NCBI RefSeq assembly: GCF_056746865.1
Contig: NZ_CM163382.1
DNA length: 64,000 bases
Reading direction: 5' to 3' (one strand)
Shown: positions 16,823 through 59,760 of the stretch, one piece after another
How positions within the stretch are numbered: the stretch's first letter is position 1
How the letters are laid out: each line of letters starts with the position of its first letter
The notes under the pieces: model-generated
Database searches by the model: none
Told to the model about the DNA's origin: nothing
The model's input: the letters and a program-made list of their open reading frames with translations, nothing else
Translations under genes and position numbers: made by a program

Positions 16823-19066
16823 TCAGGCACTTTCGCGAATGGGTTCGATTTCATTCAGCGTATCAATTAACGGTTGCGGCTTACCAATAAGATAACCCTG
16901 CATATAATCGATCCCCAAAGAGAGCACCGCCTCGCGGATCTCTTCGTTTTCAACGTACTCTGCCACTACCCGCATTTTCTTCATTCGCGCCAGGTGGCAA
17001 ATCGACGCCACTATCTGATAATCCAGACTATTTGACACAATATTGCGGATAAAACTGCCGTCAATTTTAAGCAAATCGGCATTCACATTTTTAAGCCGCG
17101 CATAGCTGGCGTAGCCGGTGCCGAAATCATCAATCGCAATCTGGCAGCCTAATTCCTGAAGATGCTGCAAGGTGATTTGCGCCTGCTTAACATTGGTCAG
17201 AGCATTACTTTCGGTGACTTCAAAAATAAGTTGCCACGCTTCAATTTGATATTTAGCCAGCAGCTGACTGACTTCAACGGGAAAACGAGCCTGACATACC
17301 GAGGTTGGCGACAGATTAATCGCAAAACGGTGAGCGGGCATCTTCGCTCTGTTTTCAGCCATAAATTGCAGCGTATGCTCAATGACCCACATGTCGATAC
17401 TCGACGATAAACCAAATTCGTGCGCGACCGGCAAGAAGCTGTCGGGGCTGATCAGTTCATCATTCTCACCTTTCATGCGCAGAAGAATTTCATGGTAGAC
17501 ATCGCCACGCATACCGGTAATCAGCTGGGCCATCAGGAAAAAATGGTTGTGTTCCAGCGCCTGCTGTAGCCGATTCATCATCGCGACTTTATCTTTCAAT
17601 TCGCGTTGCAAATACATTGCCCCGCGACGCTGCATATTTTCCGGGGCGTTGGTCACGATGGAAAGCTCGGCGACCGTATTTAGCTCTCCCAGCAGCAGGT
17701 AGATATGATTCACTGGCGAGCGCACATAGCAGTAACTGACGCCAATCTGCGGTTGCATCGGCATTCCATCCCAAAAGAAACGAAATTGCTTGAGATGGCT
17801 ATCCAGTTCGGTAATGCGCTCCTGGTGCGATTCTGTATTCAGTCGCAGCGCGAGATCGTTACCCGAAAGCTGATAAACATCCTCACCCGGTTCCAGCAAG
17901 GGTGACAGCCAGTGAGAAAGTTTTTGCTTGTATTGAATCCGCAGCATGATGCCATAGTTCTTAACCAGCATTTCCATGCCAGGGATGCGTAAATAACAAA
18001 GCGCAGACCAGGGGGCATCACGCAACGCGCGATTCAGGGCGCGAACATTTGGCAGATGAACCACCGGGTCCACATACGCAAGCCGCTGAATGCGTCTGAC
18101 TACCGCTCTCTGACGGGTTGCCAGTACAGCCATATAATTGACAATAAAAGAGAATACCAGATAACTGGAGGAGGTTATGGTCAGCTGCGTGGTATAGCCA
18201 GGATAAATGGGAATGTAATTTTGATAGCTGTGGATGCTGATCATCAACACGACCGCCCAGAGCAGCGAAATCAGCTTATAACCATAGCGCATCGCTCCCC
18301 ACATCATCAGGGGCAGCAATAATGACAAGGTATAGTTGGTGCTAAAAATTGTGCTTTTTTCATTTAACGGCATGCATAACAGCAGCAGTAAAGCACCTAA
18401 TGCCAGTAGCCAGAGTGCGAACTCTTTTTTGGTGACTTTGACATCAACCTGCTGTTTTAATTGCGAATAATAACTACGTAAATAAAACGGATTTCGCACT
18501 ACACGAATGATGAAGTAGCACAGCGGGACACCAATCAGATTGCCCACCAGTAAGGCCTGATAATTGATTAAGGTCCCGAGGTTAAAAGGCATGACGCCGA
18601 CCAGATTTTCTCTGCTCGCCAGTAATCCTACAAACGCAGCAAACTGGAAAAGTATCAGAAACAGCGTTGCAGGAAACACAATCTGCCAGAATATACGCTG
18701 GGAAATTAAACGTGTATCACCATGTGAAACGTTGTTACGCCGGGGAGTAAAGACCCTGTAACCGCCCCAACAGAGAATGATAATGATAATAAAATTAGCC
18801 GTTAATGAGAGCGTTTCGTAAAAACCCAGCTCTGCATATTTGCGGACAAAAATCCCTAAGGCGATCCCTGGCAATGCCGCCCAGCTGAAAAACATCATCA
18901 TGCTGATCATCAGAGCCAGAGGCAGATAAAAGAGAAAAACCTCACCGGAAGAAATATGCGCGAAAGTATTAATGTGGGCGAAAATGGGCAAGATTAAAGA
19001 AGGCAGGAACAGCGGAAGCCCCCACCATTTATCACGTATTTTTATATAAGTTGCATTCAGTTTCAT
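16823..19066 (-). CDS. pdeF: cyclic-di-GMP phosphodiesterase with N-terminal membrane sensor domain (YfgF/PdeF)
   Basis: 747 aa; multi-TM N-terminus, degenerate GGDEF region and C-terminal EAL domain. Confidence 0.8.
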   Translation of the reverse strand: MKLNATYIKIRDKWWGLPLFLPSLILPIFAHINTFAHISSGEVFLFYLPLALMISMMMFFSWAALPGIALGIFVRKYAELGFYETLSLTANFIIIIILCWGGYRVFTPRRNNVSHGDTRLISQRIFWQIVFPATLFLILFQFAAFVGLLASRENLVGVMPFNLGTLINYQALLVGNLIGVPLCYFIIRVVRNPFYLRSYYSQLKQQVDVKVTKKEFALWLLALGALLLLLCMPLNEKSTIFSTNYTLSLLLPLMMWGAMRYGYKLISLLWAVVLMISIHSYQNYIPIYPGYTTQLTITSSSYLVFSFIVNYMAVLATRQRAVVRRIQRLAYVDPVVHLPNVRALNRALRDAPWSALCYLRIPGMEMLVKNYGIMLRIQYKQKLSHWLSPLLEPGEDVYQLSGNDLALRLNTESHQERITELDSHLKQFRFFWDGMPMQPQIGVSYCYVRSPVNHIYLLLGELNTVAELSIVTNAPENMQRRGAMYLQRELKDKVAMMNRLQQALEHNHFFLMAQLITGMRGDVYHEILLRMKGENDELISPDSFLPVAHEFGLSSSIDMWVIEHTLQFMAENRAKMPAHRFAINLSPTSVCQARFPVEVSQLLAKYQIEAWQLIFEVTESNALTNVKQAQITLQHLQELGCQIAIDDFGTGYASYARLKNVNADLLKIDGSFIRNIVSNSLDYQIVASICHLARMKKMRVVAEYVENEEIREAVLSLGIDYMQGYLIGKPQPLIDTLNEIEPIRESA

Positions 19067-19417
19067 AGATGCTCAGCAGAATCCCCCACATCCTGAAGGA
19101 GGTGTATTCAGACAGGCATCCCACCTGACTTCGAATGATGATTATTCATCACTATAGAGAGCATTGATTCTAAGTGTCATATGAAAGTTCCAATTGATAT
19201 ATATCAAACAAAATAACCCTGATTAATGAATTATTACGTTTATCATGTTAATTCATCATTATTACATCATCATTGTAAATAATTAAATTAACTTCCATAA
19301 CATTAAAATATGTATCCACTGACGCTTTTTTACATAACGAAGAATTGACCATTTTGTCCTGTTGTGCCTTAATGTAAGTACCGTCCACAGCGTGGGACAT
19401 ACTTCAAGGAACCTTTT

Positions 19418-19609
19418 GTGAGTCAGGCAACCAGTATGCGAAAACGACACCGATTTAACAGTCGCATGACCCGTATCGTACTGCTCATCAGCTTTATCTT
19501 CTTCTTTGGCCGTTTTATCTACTCGTCCGTCGGTGCATGGCAGCACCATCAGAGCAAAAAAGAAGCTCAGCAATCCACACTCTCCGTCGAATCACCGGTA
19601 CAACGTTAG
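19418..19609 (+). CDS. yfgG: small membrane protein YfgG
   Basis: 63 aa with one hydrophobic helix, in an AT-rich intergenic region between pdeF and yfgH. Confidence 0.55.
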   Translation: MSQATSMRKRHRFNSRMTRIVLLISFIFFFGRFIYSSVGAWQHHQSKKEAQQSTLSVESPVQR

Positions 19610-19919
19610 CGGTTACCTTCTCCACTTTCACAGAACATAACGGCACCTCGCTGTCGGATGCTTTTGCTCTTTGGGATTATCAAAGCGGCAGATATTCTTT
19701 CATCTTAAATTTTACGTCTTTGTCCTGACTGATGTTTTTCCTGTTTGGCTGCGAAATAAATATAAAATTAATACATATATTTTAATGATGTATTTTTATA
19801 AATTATTTCCCACATGAATTTTAATAAATTTAATCTATTCCTTTATACGCAATACATTTACTTTCCTCTTTTGATGATCTTAAATGTCTTATTTTTCGTA
19901 ATGTGTATAACAAGGAATA

Positions 19920-20438
19920 GTGATGAAATTTAAAAAATGTCTTCTGCCTGTGGCAACGTTAGCGTCATTCACTCTGGCAGGATGCCAGTCAAATGCTGAT
20001 GATCATGCCGCCGATGTTTATCAAACCGATCAACTGAATACCAAACAAGAAACTAAAACCGTTAATATTATTTCCATTCTTCCCGCAAAAGTTGCCGTAG
20101 ACAACTCCCAAAATAAACGAAACGCACAAGCCTTCGGCGCGCTTATTGGTGCAGTCGCTGGCGGTGTTATTGGCCACAACGTCGGGTCTGGCAGCAATTC
20201 CGGAACGACGGCAGGTGCAGTTGGCGGCGGAGCTGTTGGCGCGGCAGCGGGTTCTATGGTGAATGATAAAACCTTAGTGGAAGGTGTTTCTTTAACGTAT
20301 AAGGAAGGCACCAAAGTGTATACCTCCACCCAGGTGGGTAAAGAGTGCCAGTTTACGACAGGTTTAGCCGTTGTTATTACCACGACGTATAACGAAACGC
20401 GTATTCAGCCAAATACGAAATGTCCTGAAAAGAGCTAA
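19920..20438 (+). CDS. yfgH: outer-membrane lipoprotein with glycine-zipper region
   Basis: 172 aa; lipobox LAGC; Gly-rich GxxxG repeats. Confidence 0.75.
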   Translation: MMKFKKCLLPVATLASFTLAGCQSNADDHAADVYQTDQLNTKQETKTVNIISILPAKVAVDNSQNKRNAQAFGALIGAVAGGVIGHNVGSGSNSGTTAGAVGGGAVGAAAGSMVNDKTLVEGVSLTYKEGTKVYTSTQVGKECQFTTGLAVVITTTYNETRIQPNTKCPEKS

Positions 20439-21164: not shown

Positions 21165-21530
21165 ATGATTGATGTCTTAGGACCGGAGAAACGCAGACGG
21201 CGTACTACACAGGAAAAGATCGCTATTGTTCAGCAGAGTTTTGAACCGGGAATGACGGTCTCCCTTGTTGCCCGGCAACACGGTGTGGCAGCCAGCCAGT
21301 TATTTCTCTGGCGCAAGCAATACCAGGAGGGAAGTCTTACTGCTGTGGCCGCAGGAGAGCAGGTCGTTCCTGCCTCTGAACTTGCTGCTGCCATGAAGCA
21401 GATTAAAGAACTCCAGCGCCTGCTCGGCAAAAAAACGATGGAAAATGAACTCCTTAAAGAAGCCGTTGAATACGGGCGTGCAAAAAAGTGGATAGCGCAC
21501 GCGCCCTTATTGCCCGGGGATGGGGAGTAA
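21165..21530 (+). CDS. insC: IS2 transposase OrfA (InsC)
   Basis: 121 aa beginning [30 protein letters not shown]; HTH protein. Confidence 0.9.
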
Positions 21531-22393
21531 GCTTAGTCAGCCGTTGTCTCCGGGTGTCGCGTGCGCAGTTGCACGTCATTCTCAGACGAACCGATGACTG
21601 GAAAGATGGTCGCCGCAGCCGTCACTCAGATGATACGGATGTGCTTCTCCGTATACACCATGTTATCGGAGAGCTGCCCACGTATGGTTATCGTCGGGTA
21701 TGGGCGCTGCTTCGCAGACAGGCCGAACTTGATGGTATGCCTGCGATCAATGCCAAACGTGTTTACCGGATCATGCGCCAGAATGCGCTGTTGCTTGAGC
21801 GAAAAACCGCTGTACCGCCATCGAAACGGGCACATACTGGCAAAGTGGCCGTGAAAGAAAGCAATCAACGATGGTGCTCTGACGGGTTCGAGTTCCGCTG
21901 TGATAACGGAGAAAAACTGCGAGTCACGTTCGCGCTGGACTGCTGTGACCGTGAGGCACTGCACTGGGCAGTCACTACGGGCGGCTTCGACAGTGAAACA
22001 GTACAGGACGTAATGCTGGGAGCGGTGGAACGCCGCTTCGGCAACGAGCTTCCGGCGTCTCCAGTAGAGTGGCTGACGGATAATGGTTCATGCTACCGGG
22101 CTAATGAAACACGGCAGTTTGCCCGGATGTTGGGGCTTGAACCGAAGAACACGGCGGTGCGGAGTCCGGAGAGTAACGGCATAGCAGAGAGCTTCGTGAA
22201 AACGATAAAGCGTGACTACATCAGTATCATGCCTAAACCAGACGGGTTAACGGCAGCAAAGAACCTTGCAGAGGCGTTCGAGCATTATAACGAATGGCAT
22301 CCGCATAGTGCACTGGGTTATCGCTCGCCACGGGAATATCTACGGCAGCGGGCCAGTAATGGGTTAAGTGATAACAGGTGTCTGGAAATATAG
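21488..22393 (+). CDS. insD: IS2 transposase OrfB (InsD), DDE catalytic domain
   Basis: 301-aa ORF overlapping insC in another frame, as expected for IS3-family frameshifting. Confidence 0.9.
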
Positions 22394-22404
22394 GGGCAAA
22401 TCCA

Positions 22405-23112
22405 TGCGCCTATAAGGCTCTCTTACCAGCCGCGCCCTAACAGGCGCACACGATCTGACATTTGCATCCAACTTCGTTACTTACGGCCCGTAAACGGGCT
22501 GCCCGGATAGGGAATCGATAACTGCTCTCCCATTTTATCCTCTTCAAGCTGGTGCTTTATGTAATCCTGTATCTTCGCCGTGTTCTTACCCACTGTATCG
22601 ACGTAGTACCCTCTGCACCAGAACTCCCTGTTCCTGTATTTGAATTTCAAATCACCAAACTGCTCGTAAAGCATCAGACTGCTTTTCCCTTTCAGATATC
22701 CCATAAACCCGGATACGCTCATTTTAGGCGGGATCTCCACAAGCATATGGATATGATCTGCACAGCATTCAGCTTCCAGAATCCGTACGCTTTTCCACTC
22801 ACACAGCTTTCTCAAAATACTGCCTATTGCTCTACGCTTCTCTCTGTAGAACACCTGTCTTCGGTATTTTGGCGCAAAAACTATGTGATATTTACAGTTC
22901 CATCGGGTGTGCGCTAAGCTCTTTTCGTTCCCCATTGGGACCCCCTTTTGATTTCTTGTTTGACACTTGCAGTTGCCAGACCGCAAGGTGTTTTAACAAA
23001 TCAAAAGGGGTTTTAATAACTGGCTCAAAGCTGAAAGCTTTCCGGAACCCCCAGCCTAGCTGGGGGTTTTCTGTGCACAAAAAACCCTCTGTAGTAACAG
23101 AGGGTTTTGTTC
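22405..23112 (-). mobile_element. IS200-like element (IS200/IS605 family); boundaries approximate
   Basis: About 708 bp containing tnpA with an RBS-sequestering stem (22942-23013) and terminal hairpins near 23040-23108; it is unclear whether the outermost hairpin belongs to the IS or to the host. Confidence 0.55.
22477..22935 (-). CDS. tnpA: IS200/IS605-family transposase TnpA (HUH-type)
   Basis: 152 aa from MGNEKSLAHTRWNCKYHIVFAPKYRR with the HxH motif (DHIHMLVEIPP) and catalytic Tyr region; the ORF track begins at a longer upstream start. Confidence 0.85.
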   Translation of the reverse strand: MGNEKSLAHTRWNCKYHIVFAPKYRRQVFYREKRRAIGSILRKLCEWKSVRILEAECCADHIHMLVEIPPKMSVSGFMGYLKGKSSLMLYEQFGDLKFKYRNREFWCRGYYVDTVGKNTAKIQDYIKHQLEEDKMGEQLSIPYPGSPFTGRK

Positions 23113-25372: not shown

Positions 25373-27775
25373 TCATTCAGACTCCAGCAACTCTATCCTG
25401 GCGAGAAGCGCTTCATATTTATCAAGTAATCGAGAGTAGTTCCTTCGTTGCATTGCAGCTTCCATTACCAACATTTCTTCATAACGAATGCCGTAACGGG
25501 AACCAGCTTCTATAGCAGGAGTGATTACCTCACCGGTTTCATCATCTATGACGGCAGGAGTGTCACCCCATTCATCATAACAGATGAAACCAAAGCGATG
25601 AGCATCAAGACCATGCCTTTCGAATGCCTCCACGTACCGTTGAGCAATGGCGCCGAAGTGCCAGCGGGCGCCATCAGCGCCTTTTTCTTTAATCCTATCC
25701 AGATACTTATACTGGACTAGCTGAACCTCTTCTGCGGCATCGAGAATGGCATCAGTCATTAGTAATGGGTCTGATTTGCAAATGGCATCTGACGTGATAG
25801 TGAACGCCGTTTGAGTGAATCCACCAGACCACGGAAACGAACTTGCCCCGCAAGGATAGGTATTTGCCGTGGCAGGACGTATTTGCTTCACAGCAAATAC
25901 GTGCGACGTCATTTCTGCTGTACCAGAACCCGTAACGCCGGGATCTCCACCAGAGACACGTAAAATCCCTGTAGGGACAGATGAGTCCGTCGATGAATAA
26001 AAGCGAATCTGCTGTGCTTCTGCAACACCAGGGTTACATAGCTTAATAGCTTTAGTTGTGAACGCATTAGTATCCGTATCAAATATCCAGTATCTGTTGT
26101 TTGAACCACCATCTATAATAACGTTCGCAAGAGATACACCAACTCGCTGTATATTAGAAATATTGTTAGCATTAGTACCAGCAGTTAACTGAATACCCCT
26201 TGTGCAATTATTTACACGCGAGTTACTAATAGTATTATTAGCAGCAAATCTAGTGCCAGCGGTATTTCCTGTCAGGAGAGTATGCGTAGTGTCCTTACTG
26301 AAGCCTGTCAATAACACCTCATTATTAGTGAACGTACCGTACTGAGCACATGATTTAAAACCGATATAAGGTGTGGTTAAATCCTCAGGAATACCATTCC
26401 ATACCATACAAAAGTTATCTGTAATTACACTATGGTTTCCTCCATTGTTAGACAAATCACCCAACTCTACAGCACTTATGGAAGTATTGAAGTGGTTATT
26501 TGTAACCTGGAACAGGTTACCAACATTGTTTTCAGAAACAACTCCGCGGCGACCAGCAATGATATGGTTACCGAAAACCACAACACCTTCGGTATCGTCA
26601 TGCGCGTACATGAAGGTGTCGAAGTTCTGATAAGAACCATTGACAATATTGATATTCTTTGTTGAGTACAGGTCGAATATTTTACCCATTCGATATGCTG
26701 GTACAGATGTTCCTCCACCAGTTACGTTAACGCCGTCAAATACACACTGACCAGCTCTGCTTAGCTTAAAGACAGTATCAAAAGAGGATTGAGTACCAGC
26801 ATCATTTGACACATCCAGGTCACGAACGATAAGTTGTCGGGCGTATTCGATTCCCCCTGTCCCTAAAAACGTAAGCGCAGTACCCTGAAGTTGCCCGGTA
26901 GCTTTTATCGTGAAATTACGTAAACCAACAGGTTTTCTTACTACAGTCGTACCCGAGTTATCAATGATAAGACCATATCCAGCAGCAAATTTTATTCCGC
27001 ATGTAGCCATGCTTACGCCAAAAACATCACTATAAAAATTAGTTACTGAGATGTCGCTTGAGCAGTTGTATATACGACGAAGCTTAATATCTAGACCAGT
27101 TTCCTTTGCTGCAGTAAAGGCATTGATCAGTGCCAAGGTATCATCAGCATCACCTCCAACAGCGCCAAAATCCTCAGGAGTGAGTGATTCCCTCATTTTA
27201 TCCTGGAACGTTCGGTATACTGCCCCATAACCATACTGAATAAACCAACCAAAACCACCAACAACCCCGGCGATTGCAGCATCGACATAATTACGCATTG
27301 AGCGATTATTTACAGCGTCCTGCTCAAGTGATGGATCTGCAAGGTTAGAAATTCTGTTTTGCTTTGCATCGTAATATTTTGCAAGCAAAGATGGTTTCAT
27401 CAATGCACGTCTGAACCACCCAAAACATTGCTGGATCAGCATCGTCAGGTAGTCAAAGGCATCTTCATGCACTTCGGGAAAAAACTTTCCCTGATTGCGA
27501 AGGTCTGTCTCCTGTACTACATCAAGCACACGATCTATCGTAATTCGCCATCCAGTAGCAAGCGGAGACGGAAGAACCACAGAACCGCCACTATAAGTGC
27601 CCGCCCCAGTTACCGTATAACCGGTATCCAGAACCAATTCTGTTACGTTCCCGTTCAGGTCAGACACCTGAACAACCAGGTCTGATTTTCTGAAAATTCG
27701 AAAAGTATACGGAAACGATGTCGTAACGCCGTTACCTGTGTATTCGTTGTGGTCAACTTCGGTTGAGACCGTCAT
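25373..27775 (-). CDS. tail fiber / tailspike with C-terminal intramolecular-chaperone (peptidase S74-like) domain
   Basis: 800 aa; central region rich in N/G/T/S repeats typical of beta-helix receptor-binding domains; C-terminal segment resembling the auto-cleaving chaperone of endosialidase-type fibers. Confidence 0.75.
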   Translation of the reverse strand: MTVSTEVDHNEYTGNGVTTSFPYTFRIFRKSDLVVQVSDLNGNVTELVLDTGYTVTGAGTYSGGSVVLPSPLATGWRITIDRVLDVVQETDLRNQGKFFPEVHEDAFDYLTMLIQQCFGWFRRALMKPSLLAKYYDAKQNRISNLADPSLEQDAVNNRSMRNYVDAAIAGVVGGFGWFIQYGYGAVYRTFQDKMRESLTPEDFGAVGGDADDTLALINAFTAAKETGLDIKLRRIYNCSSDISVTNFYSDVFGVSMATCGIKFAAGYGLIIDNSGTTVVRKPVGLRNFTIKATGQLQGTALTFLGTGGIEYARQLIVRDLDVSNDAGTQSSFDTVFKLSRAGQCVFDGVNVTGGGTSVPAYRMGKIFDLYSTKNINIVNGSYQNFDTFMYAHDDTEGVVVFGNHIIAGRRGVVSENNVGNLFQVTNNHFNTSISAVELGDLSNNGGNHSVITDNFCMVWNGIPEDLTTPYIGFKSCAQYGTFTNNEVLLTGFSKDTTHTLLTGNTAGTRFAANNTISNSRVNNCTRGIQLTAGTNANNISNIQRVGVSLANVIIDGGSNNRYWIFDTDTNAFTTKAIKLCNPGVAEAQQIRFYSSTDSSVPTGILRVSGGDPGVTGSGTAEMTSHVFAVKQIRPATANTYPCGASSFPWSGGFTQTAFTITSDAICKSDPLLMTDAILDAAEEVQLVQYKYLDRIKEKGADGARWHFGAIAQRYVEAFERHGLDAHRFGFICYDEWGDTPAVIDDETGEVITPAIEAGSRYGIRYEEMLVMEAAMQRRNYSRLLDKYEALLARIELLESE

Positions 27776-27879
27776 GTTAAATCTCCAGATAGTCGCAGCA
27801 CCCGTTGCGCCGCATATCTGGTTATTCTATTACCTGAAAAACCACATATGGATAGAAAGGCTGTAAATACGAATAGATA

Positions 27880-27894
27880 TTACCTTTCAGGTAA
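27880..27894. promoter_or_regulatory. operator-like inverted repeat TTACC-TTTCA-GGTAA upstream of the tail fiber gene
   Basis: Perfect 5-bp half-sites, 15-bp site identical to 44822-44836. Confidence 0.5.
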
Positions 27895-27956
27895 TTTGCA
27901 AAACGTGCTGGATAGCAAACAAATTATTTGCTACTGTATAAATATACAGTTATTGC

Positions 27957-28229
27957 ATGGAGAAGATTAAGATGCAGCAGTATCACTATCCACTGGAAGA
28001 CGGATTTACCGAAAGGATTCACACGCCGGGAGGCGTCAGGTCACTGGTGGAGGGATCGCACTTGATGAAATTACTCCGGGATCTCGATAAGGATGGATTT
28101 AATGTCGATGGCCCACTTGCCGAACTGACTGCACTGATTAACTACGTCACCAGCTCACAGATGTCTATGCGGGATCTGCAAACACATCTCGACTATTGTG
28201 CCGAACAATTACGAAAACAAACCCGGTAA
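27957..28229 (+). CDS. hypothetical small protein (moron candidate)
   Basis: 90 aa (85 aa from the second ATG at 27972, which has a GGAGAAG Shine-Dalgarno); opposite strand to all neighbouring late genes; followed by a hairpin at 28237-28252. Confidence 0.5.
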   Translation: MEKIKMQQYHYPLEDGFTERIHTPGGVRSLVEGSHLMKLLRDLDKDGFNVDGPLAELTALINYVTSSQMSMRDLQTHLDYCAEQLRKQTR

Positions 28230-28236
28230 ATTTAAA

Positions 28237-28252
28237 GGCCGCAAGAGCGGCC
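28237..28252. terminator. hairpin GGCCGC-aaga-GCGGCC between convergent genes, probably a bidirectional terminator
   Basis: Perfect 6-bp stem, then the GTGACATGTCAC palindrome and a T-run. Confidence 0.5.
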
Positions 28253-28261
28253 TGTGACATG

Positions 28262-28558
28262 TCACGCTCTTTTTCTGAATGATAGCCATTCGAAAAATGA
28301 TGACATTCCACCGCAGACAATAGCAAAGATGATCCCACCAAAGAAGAGAAGGCCAGCCTGCCACCACTCCCACCGCCATACATCCACAGCGCCAACCATA
28401 CCAACAATCGCTCCAACAAATGGAATATAGCTCACGATGAAAGCAATGGGGGCTGCAATTATCCAGTGCAATCCCCACCATGATTCAAGCCCAGCCATAA
28501 TTGCTGCCAACTGAAAAAGACCAACGACGATATAAACAATGAATCCTATAGCTTGCAT
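28262..28558 (-). CDS. small polytopic membrane protein, unknown function
   Basis: 98 aa with 3 hydrophobic helices and several Trp residues. Confidence 0.55.
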   Translation of the reverse strand: MQAIGFIVYIVVGLFQLAAIMAGLESWWGLHWIIAAPIAFIVSYIPFVGAIVGMVGAVDVWRWEWWQAGLLFFGGIIFAIVCGGMSSFFEWLSFRKRA

Positions 28559-28570
28559 GTAGTCACCTAT

Positions 28571-28744
28571 TTACCCAGTAAAAATCAGAGGCCTCCCCTC
28601 AATAAGGCTTGCAACAAGAACTATTCCCTGCACAACAAAGATGAACCAGCAAATAGCTTGAGTCTGAGGGTTAAGAAAATATTTGTAGCGGTCAATAAAT
28701 AACAACCCACCAGAAATTATCACACTCAAAATAATTAAAAACAC
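28571..28744 (-). CDS. small membrane protein, unknown function (below the ORF-track size cutoff)
   Basis: 57 aa from a GTG start preceded by AAGGAAG; two hydrophobic helices; lies between the 824-aa virion protein and the 98-aa membrane protein. Confidence 0.35.
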   Translation of the reverse strand: MFLIILSVIISGGLLFIDRYKYFLNPQTQAICWFIFVVQGIVLVASLIEGRPLIFTG

Positions 28745-28753
28745 AACACTTCC

Positions 28754-56408: not shown

Positions 56409-56714
56409 GTGGGTATGAACGTTAATCAGCAGAAAAATCTTCAAAAAATCATGCTGGCATTCGACAAGGACTACCGCCTGTCAGAACAGCTATATGACCG
56501 ACAAGTTGAACTGATCGATAGCATCCGGCTTCATCAACTGGCCTCAACTTTTGACGCTGTAACAGGCAAAGGAGTTCGCCAGGAAGTACTGGAGGCTGCT
56601 AAAGACAGCCCTGAGTTCGAAGAACTGATGGATGCCTACCGGCGAGAGGCAATGGCAATTATCGCCCGCTGGGATCTGGCGGATCGGATTGATGGGCAGA
56701 GGGAAGCGGCATGA
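56409..56714 (+). CDS. hypothetical protein
   Basis: 101 aa, between the coiled-coil gene and the exonuclease gene. Confidence 0.45.
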   Translation: MGMNVNQQKNLQKIMLAFDKDYRLSEQLYDRQVELIDSIRLHQLASTFDAVTGKGVRQEVLEAAKDSPEFEELMDAYRREAMAIIARWDLADRIDGQREAA

Positions 56715-57532
56715 AACCGGGAATTTATTTCGACATCAGCAATGAGGACTACCACGCCGGTGACGGCGTGAGTAAGTCGCAACTGGACATGGTTGCCAAG
56801 AATCCGGCGCTTCTTAAATGGGTTCAGGCAGCACCAGAAGACGAAGAGAAAAAGTCTGCACTGGATATGGGAACCGCATTGCACTGCCTGCTTCTGGAGC
56901 CTGGAGAGTTCGACAAACGCTTCATTGTTTCACCGAAATTCGATCGTCGGACGAAACAAGGTAAAGCTGACGAAGAAGCATTTCTTCGTGATGTAGCGGA
57001 TATGGGGATTACGGTACTTGATGCCGAGCAGTGGCGGAAACTGGAGCTGATGCGTGATAGCGCAATGGCTCACCCGGCGGCACGCTGGATGCTGGAAGCA
57101 CCTGGTTACTGCGAAGCATCAATGTACTGGAATGATGAAGAGACTGGTGAGTTGTGCCGCATTCGTCCAGACAAATGGCTGAACGAGCACAACGTGATCG
57201 TCGACGTGAAAAAGGTTGCAGATATGGACCGTTTTGCACGCCACATCGAGGAATTCCGCTACCACGTGCAGGACGCAATGTACCGCGAAGGCGCAATGAG
57301 GGTTACTGGTCAGCCGCATGGTTTTTTCTTTCTTGCCGTGAGCGAAAGCATTGATTGTGGTCGGTATCCGGTACGCGTGTTCGAGCTGGATGCGCCGGAT
57401 GTCGATGCCGGGCACGCTCTGTTCCGCCGGGATCTGAATACCTATCACGAATGCCGCATCAACGATGAGTGGGGCGGAGTGGAAATTATTAAACGCCCTG
57501 ACTGGGCACGTAAACAGGATATGTACGTATGA
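56711..57532 (+). CDS. RecE-like exodeoxyribonuclease VIII (PD-(D/E)xK exonuclease)
   Basis: 273 aa; N-terminus MKPGIYFDISNEDYHAGDGVSKSQL and an internal D...E.K motif (VIVDVKKV); upstream of RecT. Confidence 0.65.
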   Translation: MKPGIYFDISNEDYHAGDGVSKSQLDMVAKNPALLKWVQAAPEDEEKKSALDMGTALHCLLLEPGEFDKRFIVSPKFDRRTKQGKADEEAFLRDVADMGITVLDAEQWRKLELMRDSAMAHPAARWMLEAPGYCEASMYWNDEETGELCRIRPDKWLNEHNVIVDVKKVADMDRFARHIEEFRYHVQDAMYREGAMRVTGQPHGFFFLAVSESIDCGRYPVRVFELDAPDVDAGHALFRRDLNTYHECRINDEWGGVEIIKRPDWARKQDMYV

Positions 57533-58410
57533 GCAATGATATCGCAATCACATCACAACCAGGCGCAACTGTAGGTACTGCTGCGGCAATCTTCAGCCCG
57601 GAGGGCATGAATCAACTGGTGCGTTTCGCGGAGTTGATGTCACAAAGCAAAGCGACTGTACCGAAACATCTTGAAGGCAAACCTGCCGATTGTCTGGCGG
57701 TGACCATGCAGGCGGCACAGTGGGGAATGAACCCTTTCGCCGTGGCGCAGAAAACGCATGTGGTAAACGGAACGTTAGGCTACGAAGCACAGTTGGTAAA
57801 CGCGGTCGTATCCTCTTCCAGCCTGCTAGCGACACGCCTGAATTATCGCTGGAGCGGTGACTGGTCGAATGTTAACGGCAAAACAGATAAATCACCGAAT
57901 CTGACGGTAACTGTGTCAGCAGTTCTTAAAGGAGAAGCAGAACCCCGTGAGCTTACCATCAGTATGGCGCAAGCCGGAGTGCGTAACTCTCCATTGTGGG
58001 AACAGGATCCGCGCCAGCAGCTTGCCTATCTTTGCACGAAACGATGGGCTCGCCTGCACGCTCCTGATGTGCTTCTCGGTGTTTACACCCCTGACGAATT
58101 ACAGGAAACGGCACCGCGCGTTGAGCGAGACATTACTCCGCAAACGACTACTGCTGCGGGAATGAACAGTCTGATCAACGCTAAACCAGTGAAAAAGCAT
58201 GATGAGCAAACGCGTAAAGCGGATAGCCGTGATCCAGAAGAAATGCTGATGGCCTTTACCAGCGCAGCGATGAATTACAGCACTGTCTCCGAACTGGATA
58301 AGGCTTACAAATACATTGCACAAAAACTTTCAGATGATGACGAACTGCTGGCAAAAGCCACCGACGTTTACAGCGTTCGTCGGGAAGAATTAAACGAAAC
58401 ATCTATGTAA
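57529..58410 (+). CDS. RecT-family single-strand annealing recombinase
   Basis: 293 aa; paired with the upstream exonuclease. Confidence 0.65.
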   Translation: MSNDIAITSQPGATVGTAAAIFSPEGMNQLVRFAELMSQSKATVPKHLEGKPADCLAVTMQAAQWGMNPFAVAQKTHVVNGTLGYEAQLVNAVVSSSSLLATRLNYRWSGDWSNVNGKTDKSPNLTVTVSAVLKGEAEPRELTISMAQAGVRNSPLWEQDPRQQLAYLCTKRWARLHAPDVLLGVYTPDELQETAPRVERDITPQTTTAAGMNSLINAKPVKKHDEQTRKADSRDPEEMLMAFTSAAMNYSTVSELDKAYKYIAQKLSDDDELLAKATDVYSVRREELNETSM

Positions 58411-58817: not shown

Positions 58818-59117
58818 GTGAGAAAGTTAAGCCGACTTGAAAAATATCACATGAATAAGGTTTCAATGCGCAGTCCGTCAAAGATTGTCGCCGTTACTCC
58901 TGCGGCGATAGAGATCGAAAAACGCGCGATTGAAAGAGAGAAAAAAGGGCAGTTCCGCATTGCCGCTCACCTTTGGCTTCAGTGTATGGATGTTGCTTCT
59001 GGTGATGTTGAGCGTGCAAGGATCGCGGTTCGCAGGGACCAATGTATCACAAAAGGTAACGGCCTTCGCCGTGGAGACTATAGCGGTATAGGATGTTGCG
59101 GGGTGGTTTATGACTAA
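58818..59117 (+). CDS. hypothetical protein, translationally coupled to the methyltransferase
   Basis: 99 aa; its stop overlaps the methyltransferase start. Confidence 0.4.
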   Translation: MRKLSRLEKYHMNKVSMRSPSKIVAVTPAAIEIEKRAIEREKKGQFRIAAHLWLQCMDVASGDVERARIAVRRDQCITKGNGLRRGDYSGIGCCGVVYD

Positions 59118-59760
59118 GAAATACACACTAATCTATGCAGATCCACCCTGGGTATACCGGGACAAAGCCGCAGATGGTAATCGCGGTGCCGGTTTTAAAT
59201 ATCCGGTTATGAGTGTGATGGATATCTGCCGCCTTCCTGTGTGGGATTTGGCCGATGAAAACTGTCTGTTGGCCATGTGGTGGGTGCCAACACAACCACT
59301 CGAAGCACTAAAAGTTGTTGAAGCCTGGGGGTTCCGTCTGATGACCATGAAGGGCTTCACGTGGATAAAATGTGGTAGTCGACAACCAGATAAACTGGTT
59401 ATGGGTATGGGACACATGACTCGCGCCAATAGTGAAGATTGCCTGTTTGCAGTTAAGGGAAAACTACCTCCGCGCATTAATGCAGGGATCGTTCAGTCAT
59501 TTACCGCACCGCGGCTTGAGCATTCAAGAAAACCAGATGTCGTTCGTGAAAAACTTGTGCAATTGTTAGGCGATGTTTCTCGCATTGAACTGTTCGCCCG
59601 CCAGACGTCTCATGGCTTCGATGTTTGGGGTAATCAGTGCGAAGACCCGGCAGTGCAACTACACCCCGGATACGCGTTGGATATTGGCGGATTAACAAAT
59701 GCATTCAGCAATGCTCCGCTGTCACCAACAGACAACCAGGGACGGGAGCGTGCAGCATGA
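59110..59760 (+). CDS. MT-A70 family N6-adenine DNA methyltransferase (orphan)
   Basis: 216 aa; catalytic DPPW motif (LIYADPPWVY); no adjacent restriction endonuclease gene recognised. Confidence 0.75.
   Translation: MTKKYTLIYADPPWVYRDKAADGNRGAGFKYPVMSVMDICRLPVWDLADENCLLAMWWVPTQPLEALKVVEAWGFRLMTMKGFTWIKCGSRQPDKLVMGMGHMTRANSEDCLFAVKGKLPPRINAGIVQSFTAPRLEHSRKPDVVREKLVQLLGDVSRIELFARQTSHGFDVWGNQCEDPAVQLHPGYALDIGGLTNAFSNAPLSPTDNQGRERAA

What the first reader, a model, noticed from the sequence alone, without database searches (positions are those of the whole stretch)
25373..27775. Tail fiber with predicted beta-helix receptor-binding region and C-terminal self-cleaving chaperone domain
The 800-aa fiber has an N-terminal virion-anchoring region, a long N/G/T/S-rich central region typical of pectate-lyase-like depolymerase folds, and a C-terminal segment resembling endosialidase-type intramolecular chaperones. 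This protein is the likely host-range and polysaccharide specificity determinant and a possible depolymerase.
Basis: partly seen in the sequence, partly recalled or inferred. Interest (0 to 1): 0.4.

Follow-up and report, generated by a model that had tools for sequence, protein, structure and literature searches.

The report
Prophage tailspike with self-cleaving chaperone
This is an ordinary three-part tailspike gene of an epsilon15-like E. coli prophage (virion anchor, beta-helix sugar-recognising domain, self-cleaving folding chaperone); the only unusual point is that its middle domain is a rare, uncharacterised subtype whose sugar target is unknown.

Summary
The 800-aa ORF at 25373..27775 (minus strand) is real and intact.

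- **Anchor, aa 1-~196:** this is the epsilon15/phiV10-type virion anchor. It is 71.5% identical to epsilon15 gp20.
- **Chaperone, aa 662-800:** this is a Peptidase_S74 intramolecular chaperone. S662 and K667 align with the endoNF S911/K916 dyad.

The gene sits just upstream of the lysis cassette of a ~39 kb epsilon15-like prophage.

The beta-helix plus chaperone cassette (aa 241-780) is nearly identical in P22-like prophage tailspikes that carry a different anchor. This is classic module shuffling.

The central domain is rare:
- It occurs in 2 of 5426 complete E. coli genomes.
- It has no match in 50,697 phage records.
- Only 13 of 1.84 billion representative proteins reach E<=1e-30.
- No member has been characterised.

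Enzymatic activity, hydrolase versus lyase chemistry, and the target glycan remain unproven. The two complete-genome lysogens have unrelated O-antigen clusters.

Verdict: a new member of a known kind, of low interest.

The parts
25373..27775 (-). Complete tailspike gene (800 codons plus stop); predicted 87.3 kDa precursor
   Evidence: ORF list; 99% identical 800-aa database protein P0001; PHROG 1171 tail spike 1e-167; mass
27783..27786 (-). GGAG Shine-Dalgarno, 8 nt upstream of the ATG
   Evidence: Upstream sequence ATCTGGAGATTTAAC-ATG
27188..27775 (-). N-terminal virion anchor/adaptor module, aa 1-~196 (epsilon15/phiV10 type), ending in the conserved YRTFQDKMRE junction motif
   Evidence: 71.5% identity to epsilon15 gp20 aa 1-165 and 68.5% to phiV10; PDB Dpo31/Dpo36 aa 1-182, E 1e-31; ~100% identical to E. 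coli spikes with unrelated central domains; DNA nt 1-582/628 shared at 95-98.6% with many of the 494 matching E. coli genomes
26096..27187 (-). Right-handed parallel beta-helix receptor-binding / putative depolymerase domain, aa ~197-560 (C-terminal boundary approximate)
26366..26623 (-). Most conserved rungs of the beta-helix, aa 385-470; invariant E396, H404, R410, H428, H448, Y470; candidate substrate or active-site patch (inference)
   Evidence: Invariant-column density across 11 homologues at 45-73% identity. Some N/H positions may instead belong to a structural Asn ladder
25793..26095 (-). C-terminal beta-rich neck/stalk preceding the cleavage site, aa ~561-661, ending in the conserved motif PWSGGFTQTAFTIT
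   Evidence: Aligns to the endoNF stalk plus chaperone construct 3gw6 and to 9vvr, 6eu4, 7y5s; pLDDT 74-85 up to ~630, low at 636-666 in the monomer model
25376..25792 (-). Peptidase_S74 / intramolecular chaperone auto-processing domain, aa 662-800 (15.9 kDa), predicted to be released by cleavage between T661 and S662
   Evidence: PF13884 E 2e-9, 38 bits against cut-off 22; 3gud E 2e-21, 3gw6 E 5e-15, 4uw8 E 6e-10, 9vvr E 1e-53; Foldseek TM 0.74 to 3gud
25790..25792 (-). Codon of S662, predicted nucleophile; aligns with endoNF S911
   Evidence: Residue-by-residue alignment to 3gw6, the S911A mutant; the dyad is described in PMC8326128
25775..25777 (-). Codon of K667, predicted general base; aligns with endoNF K916
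   Evidence: Alignment to 3gw6, 3gud, 9vvr, 6eu4, 7y5s, all carrying SDxxxK (PMC8326128)

Best explanation
The gene encodes the single tailspike (receptor-binding protein) of an epsilon15-like temperate podovirus integrated next to yfgI. Three copies are predicted to trimerise, nucleated by the C-terminal chaperone domain (aa 662-800). That domain then removes itself by Ser662/Lys667-catalysed cleavage, leaving a ~71 kDa mature subunit. The N-terminal ~196 residues dock the trimer onto the tail hub. The beta-helix (aa ~197-560) binds, and most probably cleaves, a surface polysaccharide of the host so the virion can reach the outer membrane. It is therefore the host-range determinant. I rate glycoside-hydrolase chemistry on a neutral O-antigen as somewhat more likely than lyase chemistry.

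What is shown: the ORF, the domain homologies, the predicted fold, the conserved dyad, the prophage context and the module exchange.

What is inferred: trimerisation, cleavage, catalysis and the receptor class.
For: Intact ORF with RBS. Anchor homology to epsilon15 gp20 and phiV10 and to solved podophage spike anchors. Context of portal, capsid, gp10 staple and T7 gp14-like core genes upstream in the near-identical PF9285 prophage, with two holins, a GH19 endolysin and DUF2514 downstream. Confident beta-helix model matching tailspikes and carbohydrate-active beta-helices. Transitive link to PF12708/NosD/Beta_helix. PF13884 above threshold, with S662/K667 aligned to S911/K916. The same beta-helix plus chaperone cassette is ~100% identical over aa 241-780 in tailspikes of P22-like prophages, next to gp16/gp20, the immI region and the integrase. 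This fits the anchor/RBD swapping described for Uetake- and Lederbergviruses (PMC10408124). Both lysogens' O-antigens are neutral sugars (PMC7685785), which would require a hydrolase if the O-antigen is the target.
Against: The top structural neighbours are an epimerase and a lyase. The two complete-genome lysogens have unrelated O-antigen clusters, O107/O117 versus the O77 group, so the usual rule that a prophage spike targets its host's O-antigen gives no consistent receptor. No O-antigen-conversion gene was found among the 20 ORFs of the window scanned with Pfam, 18 of them prophage ORFs. The endoNF Arg897 that assists cleavage corresponds to Pro648 here. The query itself has no Pfam beta-helix hit.
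Confidence: 0.8

Rival explanations
1. The beta-helix is a polysaccharide lyase (or epimerase-like enzyme) acting on an acidic glycan such as a capsule, colanic acid or another uronic-acid polymer, not on the O-antigen. This would explain why lysogens have different O-serogroups.
Against: Hydrolases and hydrolytic tailspikes score almost as well (Dettilon 32.6, GH87 32.3, GH110 30.8) at similar 13-17% identity. A profile of true central-domain homologues does not retrieve K5 lyase. The earlier K5-lyase hit was an artefact of a mixed alignment. No lyase motif was verified.
Confidence: 0.25
2. The beta-helix only binds its receptor and has no catalytic activity, so it is an adhesin-type spike.
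Against: Four consecutive rungs (aa 385-470) hold a dense block of invariant polar and charged residues across homologues only 45-55% identical, which suggests a conserved active site. The solved podoviral beta-helix tailspikes among the structural neighbours (P22, Sf6, HK620, Det7, CBA120 TSPs, Dettilon) are described as enzymes.
Confidence: 0.12
3. The C-terminal domain is retained in the mature spike and acts as a distal domain rather than being auto-cleaved.
For: The Arg897 equivalent that helps trigger cleavage in endoNF is Pro648 here and is absent in close homologues. pLDDT is low around the cleavage site in the monomer model.
Against: The Ser-Lys dyad and the SDxxxK context are strictly conserved. 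MyRF cleaves without an equivalent basic residue (PMC8326128). The domain scores well above the Pfam threshold.
Confidence: 0.1

Closest known systems
Tailspikes of Uetakeviruses (Salmonella phage epsilon15 gp20, E. coli phage phiV10 RBP)
   Same: The N-terminal anchor is 68-72% identical over ~165 aa. It is the single RBP gene immediately upstream of the lysis cassette of an epsilon15-like genome. The anchor length (~200 aa) matches the 205-aa delineation used by Pas et al..
   Different: The receptor-binding region has no detectable sequence match in any of 50,697 phage records.
Intramolecular chaperone (Peptidase_S74) domains of endosialidase endoNF (3gw6), GA-1 gp12 (3gud) and T5 pb1 (4uw8)
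   Same: Pfam PF13884 is above threshold. The Ser/Lys dyad, its spacing and its C-terminal position are conserved. Foldseek TM is 0.74 to 3gud.
   Different: The upstream functional domain is a beta-helix, not a sialidase beta-propeller. The endoNF Arg897 equivalent is Pro.
K5 lyase tailspikes (KflA 2x3h; 'Lyase' of phage AAPEc6)
   Different: Identity is only ~15-23%, mostly in the C-terminal part. The central-domain profile does not find KflA. No evidence of heparosan specificity.
AlgE4 mannuronan C5-epimerase A-module (2pyg) and the PF12708/NosD-like beta-helix group
   Different: Identity is 17%. AlgE4 is a secreted bacterial enzyme, not a virion protein. Its catalytic motif was not verified here.
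Tailspikes of P22-like (Lederbergvirus-like) E. coli prophages, e.g. P0002 and P0018 (747 aa)
   Same: aa 241-780 are ~100% identical in 20-aa blocks, so it is the same beta-helix plus chaperone cassette.
   Different: They carry the P22 head-binding domain PF09008 instead of the epsilon15-type anchor and sit in P22-like prophages.
PDB 9vvr 'Tail spike protein' (843 aa, 18 chains)
   Same: The neck and chaperone region, aa 628-785, matches at E 1e-53.
   Different: The central domain is not homologous at sequence level to this protein's family. No publication was found.

Membership tests
Peptidase_S74 / intramolecular chaperone auto-processing domain (PF13884) | Profile match above the curated threshold | tested here: met
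   38 bits against a cut-off of 22, E 2e-9, aa 662-723, full-length profile 1-58
Peptidase_S74 / intramolecular chaperone auto-processing domain (PF13884) | Catalytic Ser-Lys dyad (endoNF S911/K916) at the N-terminal edge of the domain | tested here: met
   S662 and K667 align column-for-column with A911 (S911A mutant) and K916 of 3gw6, and with SDxxxK in 9vvr, 6eu4, 7y5s and 3gud (PMC8326128)
Peptidase_S74 / intramolecular chaperone auto-processing domain (PF13884) | Assisting basic residue in the preceding triple beta-helix (endoNF R897) | tested here: not met
   The aligned residue is P648, and no Arg lies in SSFPWSGG. This residue is not universal: MyRF lacks a required equivalent
Peptidase_S74 / intramolecular chaperone auto-processing domain (PF13884) | Actual autoproteolytic release after trimer assembly | not testable with these tools
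   Needs expression and SDS-PAGE/MS; predicted fragments are 71.4 and 15.9 kDa
Right-handed parallel beta-helix (pectin-lyase-like) superfamily | Beta-helix fold of the central domain | tested here: met
Right-handed parallel beta-helix (pectin-lyase-like) superfamily | Direct Pfam match (PF12708, PF13229 or PF05048) | tested here: not met
   No such hit in the query at E<=1. The link is only transitive, through relatives P0139 and P0144-P0152
Uetakevirus (epsilon15-like) tailspike | Conserved N-terminal anchor of ~200 aa | tested here: met
   71.5% identity to epsilon15 gp20 and 68.5% to phiV10 over aa 1-165; PHROG 1171 at 1e-167
Uetakevirus (epsilon15-like) tailspike | Location in an epsilon15-like genome | tested here: met
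   In the near-identical PF9285 prophage: portal, Bbp19, capsid, Bbp16, gp10 staple, T7 gp14-family core and SLT proteins upstream. In the window: matching ORF sizes upstream and holins, GH19 endolysin and DUF2514 downstream
K5 lyase (KflA/ElmA) family | Sequence homology of the catalytic beta-helix | tested here: not met
   The central-domain profile A2 finds no 2x3h hit at E<=1. The one search hit came from unrelated central domains in the mixed alignment A1. Only the neck region matches weakly, at E 1e-3
Endosialidase (GH58) | Beta-propeller sialidase catalytic domain | tested here: not met
   No propeller was predicted and no sialidase hit was found. Only the chaperone domain is shared
T7 tail fibre N-terminal domain (PF03906) | Profile match above threshold | tested here: not met
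   13 bits against a cut-off of 25.2, E 0.084

The most novel reading that the evidence does not exclude
The central beta-helix founds an uncharacterised depolymerase family with its own active-site constellation (E396/R410/Y470 with H404/H428/H448). Its substrate is not the serogroup-specific O-antigen but another E. coli surface glycan shared by strains of unrelated O-types, which would explain its presence in O107/O117 and O77-group lysogens.
Probability: 0.15. Interest if true: 0.4.

Novelty: new member of a known kind. Interest (0 to 1): 0.2.

Why it matters
Tailspikes set phage host range and are used as serotyping reagents, anti-capsule or anti-biofilm enzymes and swap-in modules for engineered phages and tailocins. 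This one adds a rare, uncharacterised receptor-binding subtype that already works on at least three anchor types: epsilon15-like, P22-like and PF18668. That makes it a ready-made cassette once its glycan target is known. It does not change any concept.

Tried and rejected
1. **K5-lyase homology.** A mixed alignment profile (A1) hit KflA at E 1e-32 and 9vvr over nearly its full length. A profile restricted to true central-domain homologues (A2) lost both. The hit came from A1 members with different central domains (~25% identity), so it was rejected as an artefact.

2. **Receptor from lysogen serogroup.** PF9285 carries O107/O117 wzx/wzy. A_5 carries the O17/O44/O73/O77/O106 cluster and is absent from the 20 genomes with the O117 wzy. 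The two are chemically unrelated, so no assignment was possible.

3. **O-antigen-conversion gene as indirect evidence.** None was found among the 20 ORFs of the window scanned, 18 of them prophage ORFs.

4. **Characterised phage relative of the central domain.** tblastn against 50,697 phage records found no match. NCBIfam gave no family.

5. **Catalytic residues.** Only conservation could be computed. Model coordinates are not exposed and no trimer could be modelled.

6. **Publication for PDB 9vvr.** None found.

7. **Promoter and terminator scan.** Promoter-like sites were not above shuffles (7 against 8.8 expected). Terminator-like sites were above shuffles (9 against 3.1 expected), but none lies just downstream of the gene.

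Full report
**Observation.** The window holds an uninterrupted 800-codon ORF on the minus strand, with the ATG at 27775 and the stop codon at 25373-25375. A GGAG sits 8 nt upstream of the start. The N-terminus aligns from residue 1 with solved podophage spike proteins, so the start codon is right. N+G+T+S make up 41% of residues 241-560, against 28% in the first 180 residues and 14% in the last 139. A database protein of the same length is 99% identical (P0001).

**Context.** The gene lies in a ~39 kb prophage.
- Immediately downstream are two holins (PF16931, PF05449), a GH19 endolysin and a DUF2514 protein.
- The near-identical locus in E. coli PF9285 (99.7% DNA identity over the gene) is annotated with portal, Bbp19, capsid, Bbp16 cement, gp10 'capsid staple', a T7 gp14-family core protein and an SLT-domain protein upstream. 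This is an epsilon15-like (Uetakevirus-like) podovirus.
- The far end of the prophage holds a repressor, RecT, an MT-A70 methylase and an integrase.

**N-terminal module (aa 1-~196).**
- tblastn gives 71.5% identity to epsilon15 gp20 and 68.5% to the phiV10 RBP over aa 1-165.
- phmmer finds the Klebsiella podophage spikes Dpo31/Dpo36 over aa 1-182 at E 1e-31.
- PHROG 1171 'tail spike' scores 1e-167.
- At the DNA level the first 582-628 nt are shared at 95-98.6% with many of the 494 complete E. coli genomes that match, while only 2 of 5426 genomes hold the whole gene.
- Block-wise identity shows that aa 1-~160 are ~100% identical to spikes whose central domains are unrelated. The break follows the motif YRTFQDKMRE.
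- This matches the ~205-aa anchor delineated for Uetakeviruses by Pas et al. (PMC10408124).
- The Pfam T7 fibre N-terminal domain is below threshold.

**Central domain (aa ~197-630).**
- An AlphaFold2 model built on a 35-sequence alignment is confident here (pLDDT 80-96) and consists of a long ladder of short strands. The anchor is poorly modelled because the alignment is shallow there.
- Foldseek against the PDB returns only right-handed beta-helices and chaperone domains: P22, Sf6, Det7, Dettilon and CBA120 tailspikes, AlgE4, GH28 and GH87.
- In BFVD the top hit is a 'Lyase' of coliphage AAPEc6.

**A false lead.** A profile of the mixed alignment A1 hit K5 lyase KflA at E 1e-32. That alignment contained spikes whose central domains are only ~25% identical to the query. 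A profile of 11 true central-domain homologues (A2, 45-73% identity) finds neither KflA nor 9vvr. It finds only the first rungs of Phi92 colanidase gp150. Sequence-level membership in the K5 lyase family is therefore rejected.

**How rare is the central domain?**
- tblastn of aa 198-640 finds nothing in 50,697 phage records.
- The word-indexed search of 5.8 billion proteins returns only 60 clusters, all Enterobacteriaceae spikes without a functional name.
- An exhaustive HMM search of 1.84 billion representatives returns 159 proteins at E<=1e-3 and 13 at E<=1e-30.
- Intermediate relatives hit PF12708 (RGase-A/epimerase pectate-lyase-like), NosD and Beta_helix. This ties the family transitively to the same subgroup as AlgE4, although the query itself has no such Pfam hit.
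- Conservation peaks in rungs aa 385-470, with invariant E396, H404, R410, H428, H448 and Y470. This is a candidate active site, but some of these residues may belong to a structural Asn/His ladder, and I could not inspect coordinates.

**C-terminal chaperone (aa 662-800).**
- Pfam Peptidase_S74 scores 38 bits against a cut-off of 22.
- phmmer finds GA-1 gp12 (3gud, 2e-21), endoNF (3gw6, 5e-15), T5 pb1 (4uw8, 6e-10) and a tail spike 9vvr (1e-53).
- In the residue alignment, S662 pairs with position 911 of the endoNF S911A crystal construct and K667 pairs with K916. Every homologue shows SDxxxK.
- These two residues form the catalytic dyad of the family (PMC8326128).
- The endoNF helper Arg897 corresponds to Pro648 here. 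This is a caveat, but MyRF cleaves without an equivalent residue.
- Predicted products are 71.4 kDa (aa 1-661) and 15.9 kDa.

**Module exchange.**
- The cassette of aa 241-780 is ~100% identical, in 20-aa blocks, to 747-aa proteins that start with the P22 head-binding domain PF09008. It is 85-100% identical to proteins that start with PF18668.
- The PF09008 versions sit in bona fide P22-like prophages, next to gp16/gp20 injection proteins, the arc/mnt/ant region and the integrase.
- The central domain has 40.5% GC, against 46-48% in the flanking modules and ~50% in the window.
- The same spike gene is carried by epsilon15-like prophages at two different attachment sites: yfgI in the window and in PF9285, and ydbA/ydbD in strain A_5.

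**Receptor.** I tried the usual inference that a prophage spike recognises its lysogen's O-antigen.
- PF9285 has the O107/O117 cluster.
- A_5 has the O17/O44/O73/O77/O106 cluster and is not among the 20 genomes with the O117 wzy.
- These O-units are chemically unrelated. One is a 5-sugar unit whose gene cluster includes the dTDP-rhamnose genes rfbBDAC. The other has a Man3-GlcNAc backbone (PMC7685785).
- No acyltransferase or gtr-type conversion gene was found among the 20 ORFs of the window scanned, 18 of them prophage ORFs.

With two lysogens this is inconclusive, and the glycan target stays unknown. Both O-antigens are neutral, so if the O-antigen is the target the enzyme must be a hydrolase. 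If the target is an acidic exopolysaccharide, the lyase- and epimerase-like neighbours become relevant.

**Verdict.** This is a standard tripartite prophage tailspike made of an anchor, a beta-helix and a self-cleaving chaperone. It is a new member of a known kind. Its only distinctive feature is a rare, uncharacterised receptor-binding subtype of unknown specificity. Interest is low (0.2).

Noticed in passing
window 21488-22986: An IS3-family transposase ORF (rve/HTH_21, 21488-22393, +) and an IS200-type Y1 transposase (22477-22986, -) lie between the end of the prophage lysis cassette and the host yfgI/yfgH genes. The same junction in strain PF9285 has no IS.
   Followed up: partly
window 27776-28753: Only ~1 kb separates the tailspike from the upstream 824-aa virion gene. 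It holds a 98-aa very hydrophobic ORF (28262-28558, -) and a 90-aa ORF on the opposite strand (27957-28229, +), neither with a Pfam match. PF9285 and A_5 carry a ~4.6 kb moron block here instead (BRO-N proteins, YafO toxin, antirepressor fragment).
   Followed up: partly
window 27194-27775 (gene nt 1-582): The same epsilon15-type anchor (98.5% DNA identity) is fused to endosialidase beta-propeller domains in K1 strains (APEC O1, CE10, VR50 and others) and to GH28-related domains in other strains. The anchor therefore serves many receptor-binding cassettes in E. coli prophages.
   Followed up: partly
window 25376-25435 and 27056-27187 (aa 781-800 and 197-240): Identity to the P22-anchor version of the cassette drops to ~50% in the first two rungs (aa 197-240) and in the last 20 residues, while aa 241-780 are ~100% identical. 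This suggests recombination break-points inside the gene rather than at the domain borders.
   Followed up: no
L006 (E. coli A_5, NZ_CP195580.1 2688670-2709072): A 99%-identical copy of the spike gene sits in an epsilon15-like prophage inserted at a different chromosomal site (a truncated autotransporter next to pdxI/ydbD) in a strain of a different O-serogroup.
   Followed up: partly
window 59110-59757: The prophage encodes an MT-A70-family DNA methyltransferase, near RecT (57529-58407) and a PDDEXK-like DUF3799 protein (56711-57529).
   Followed up: no
window 18001-20000: A second low-GC stretch (41.4%) lies in host DNA around the 3' end of pdeF and yfgG, outside the prophage.
   Followed up: no
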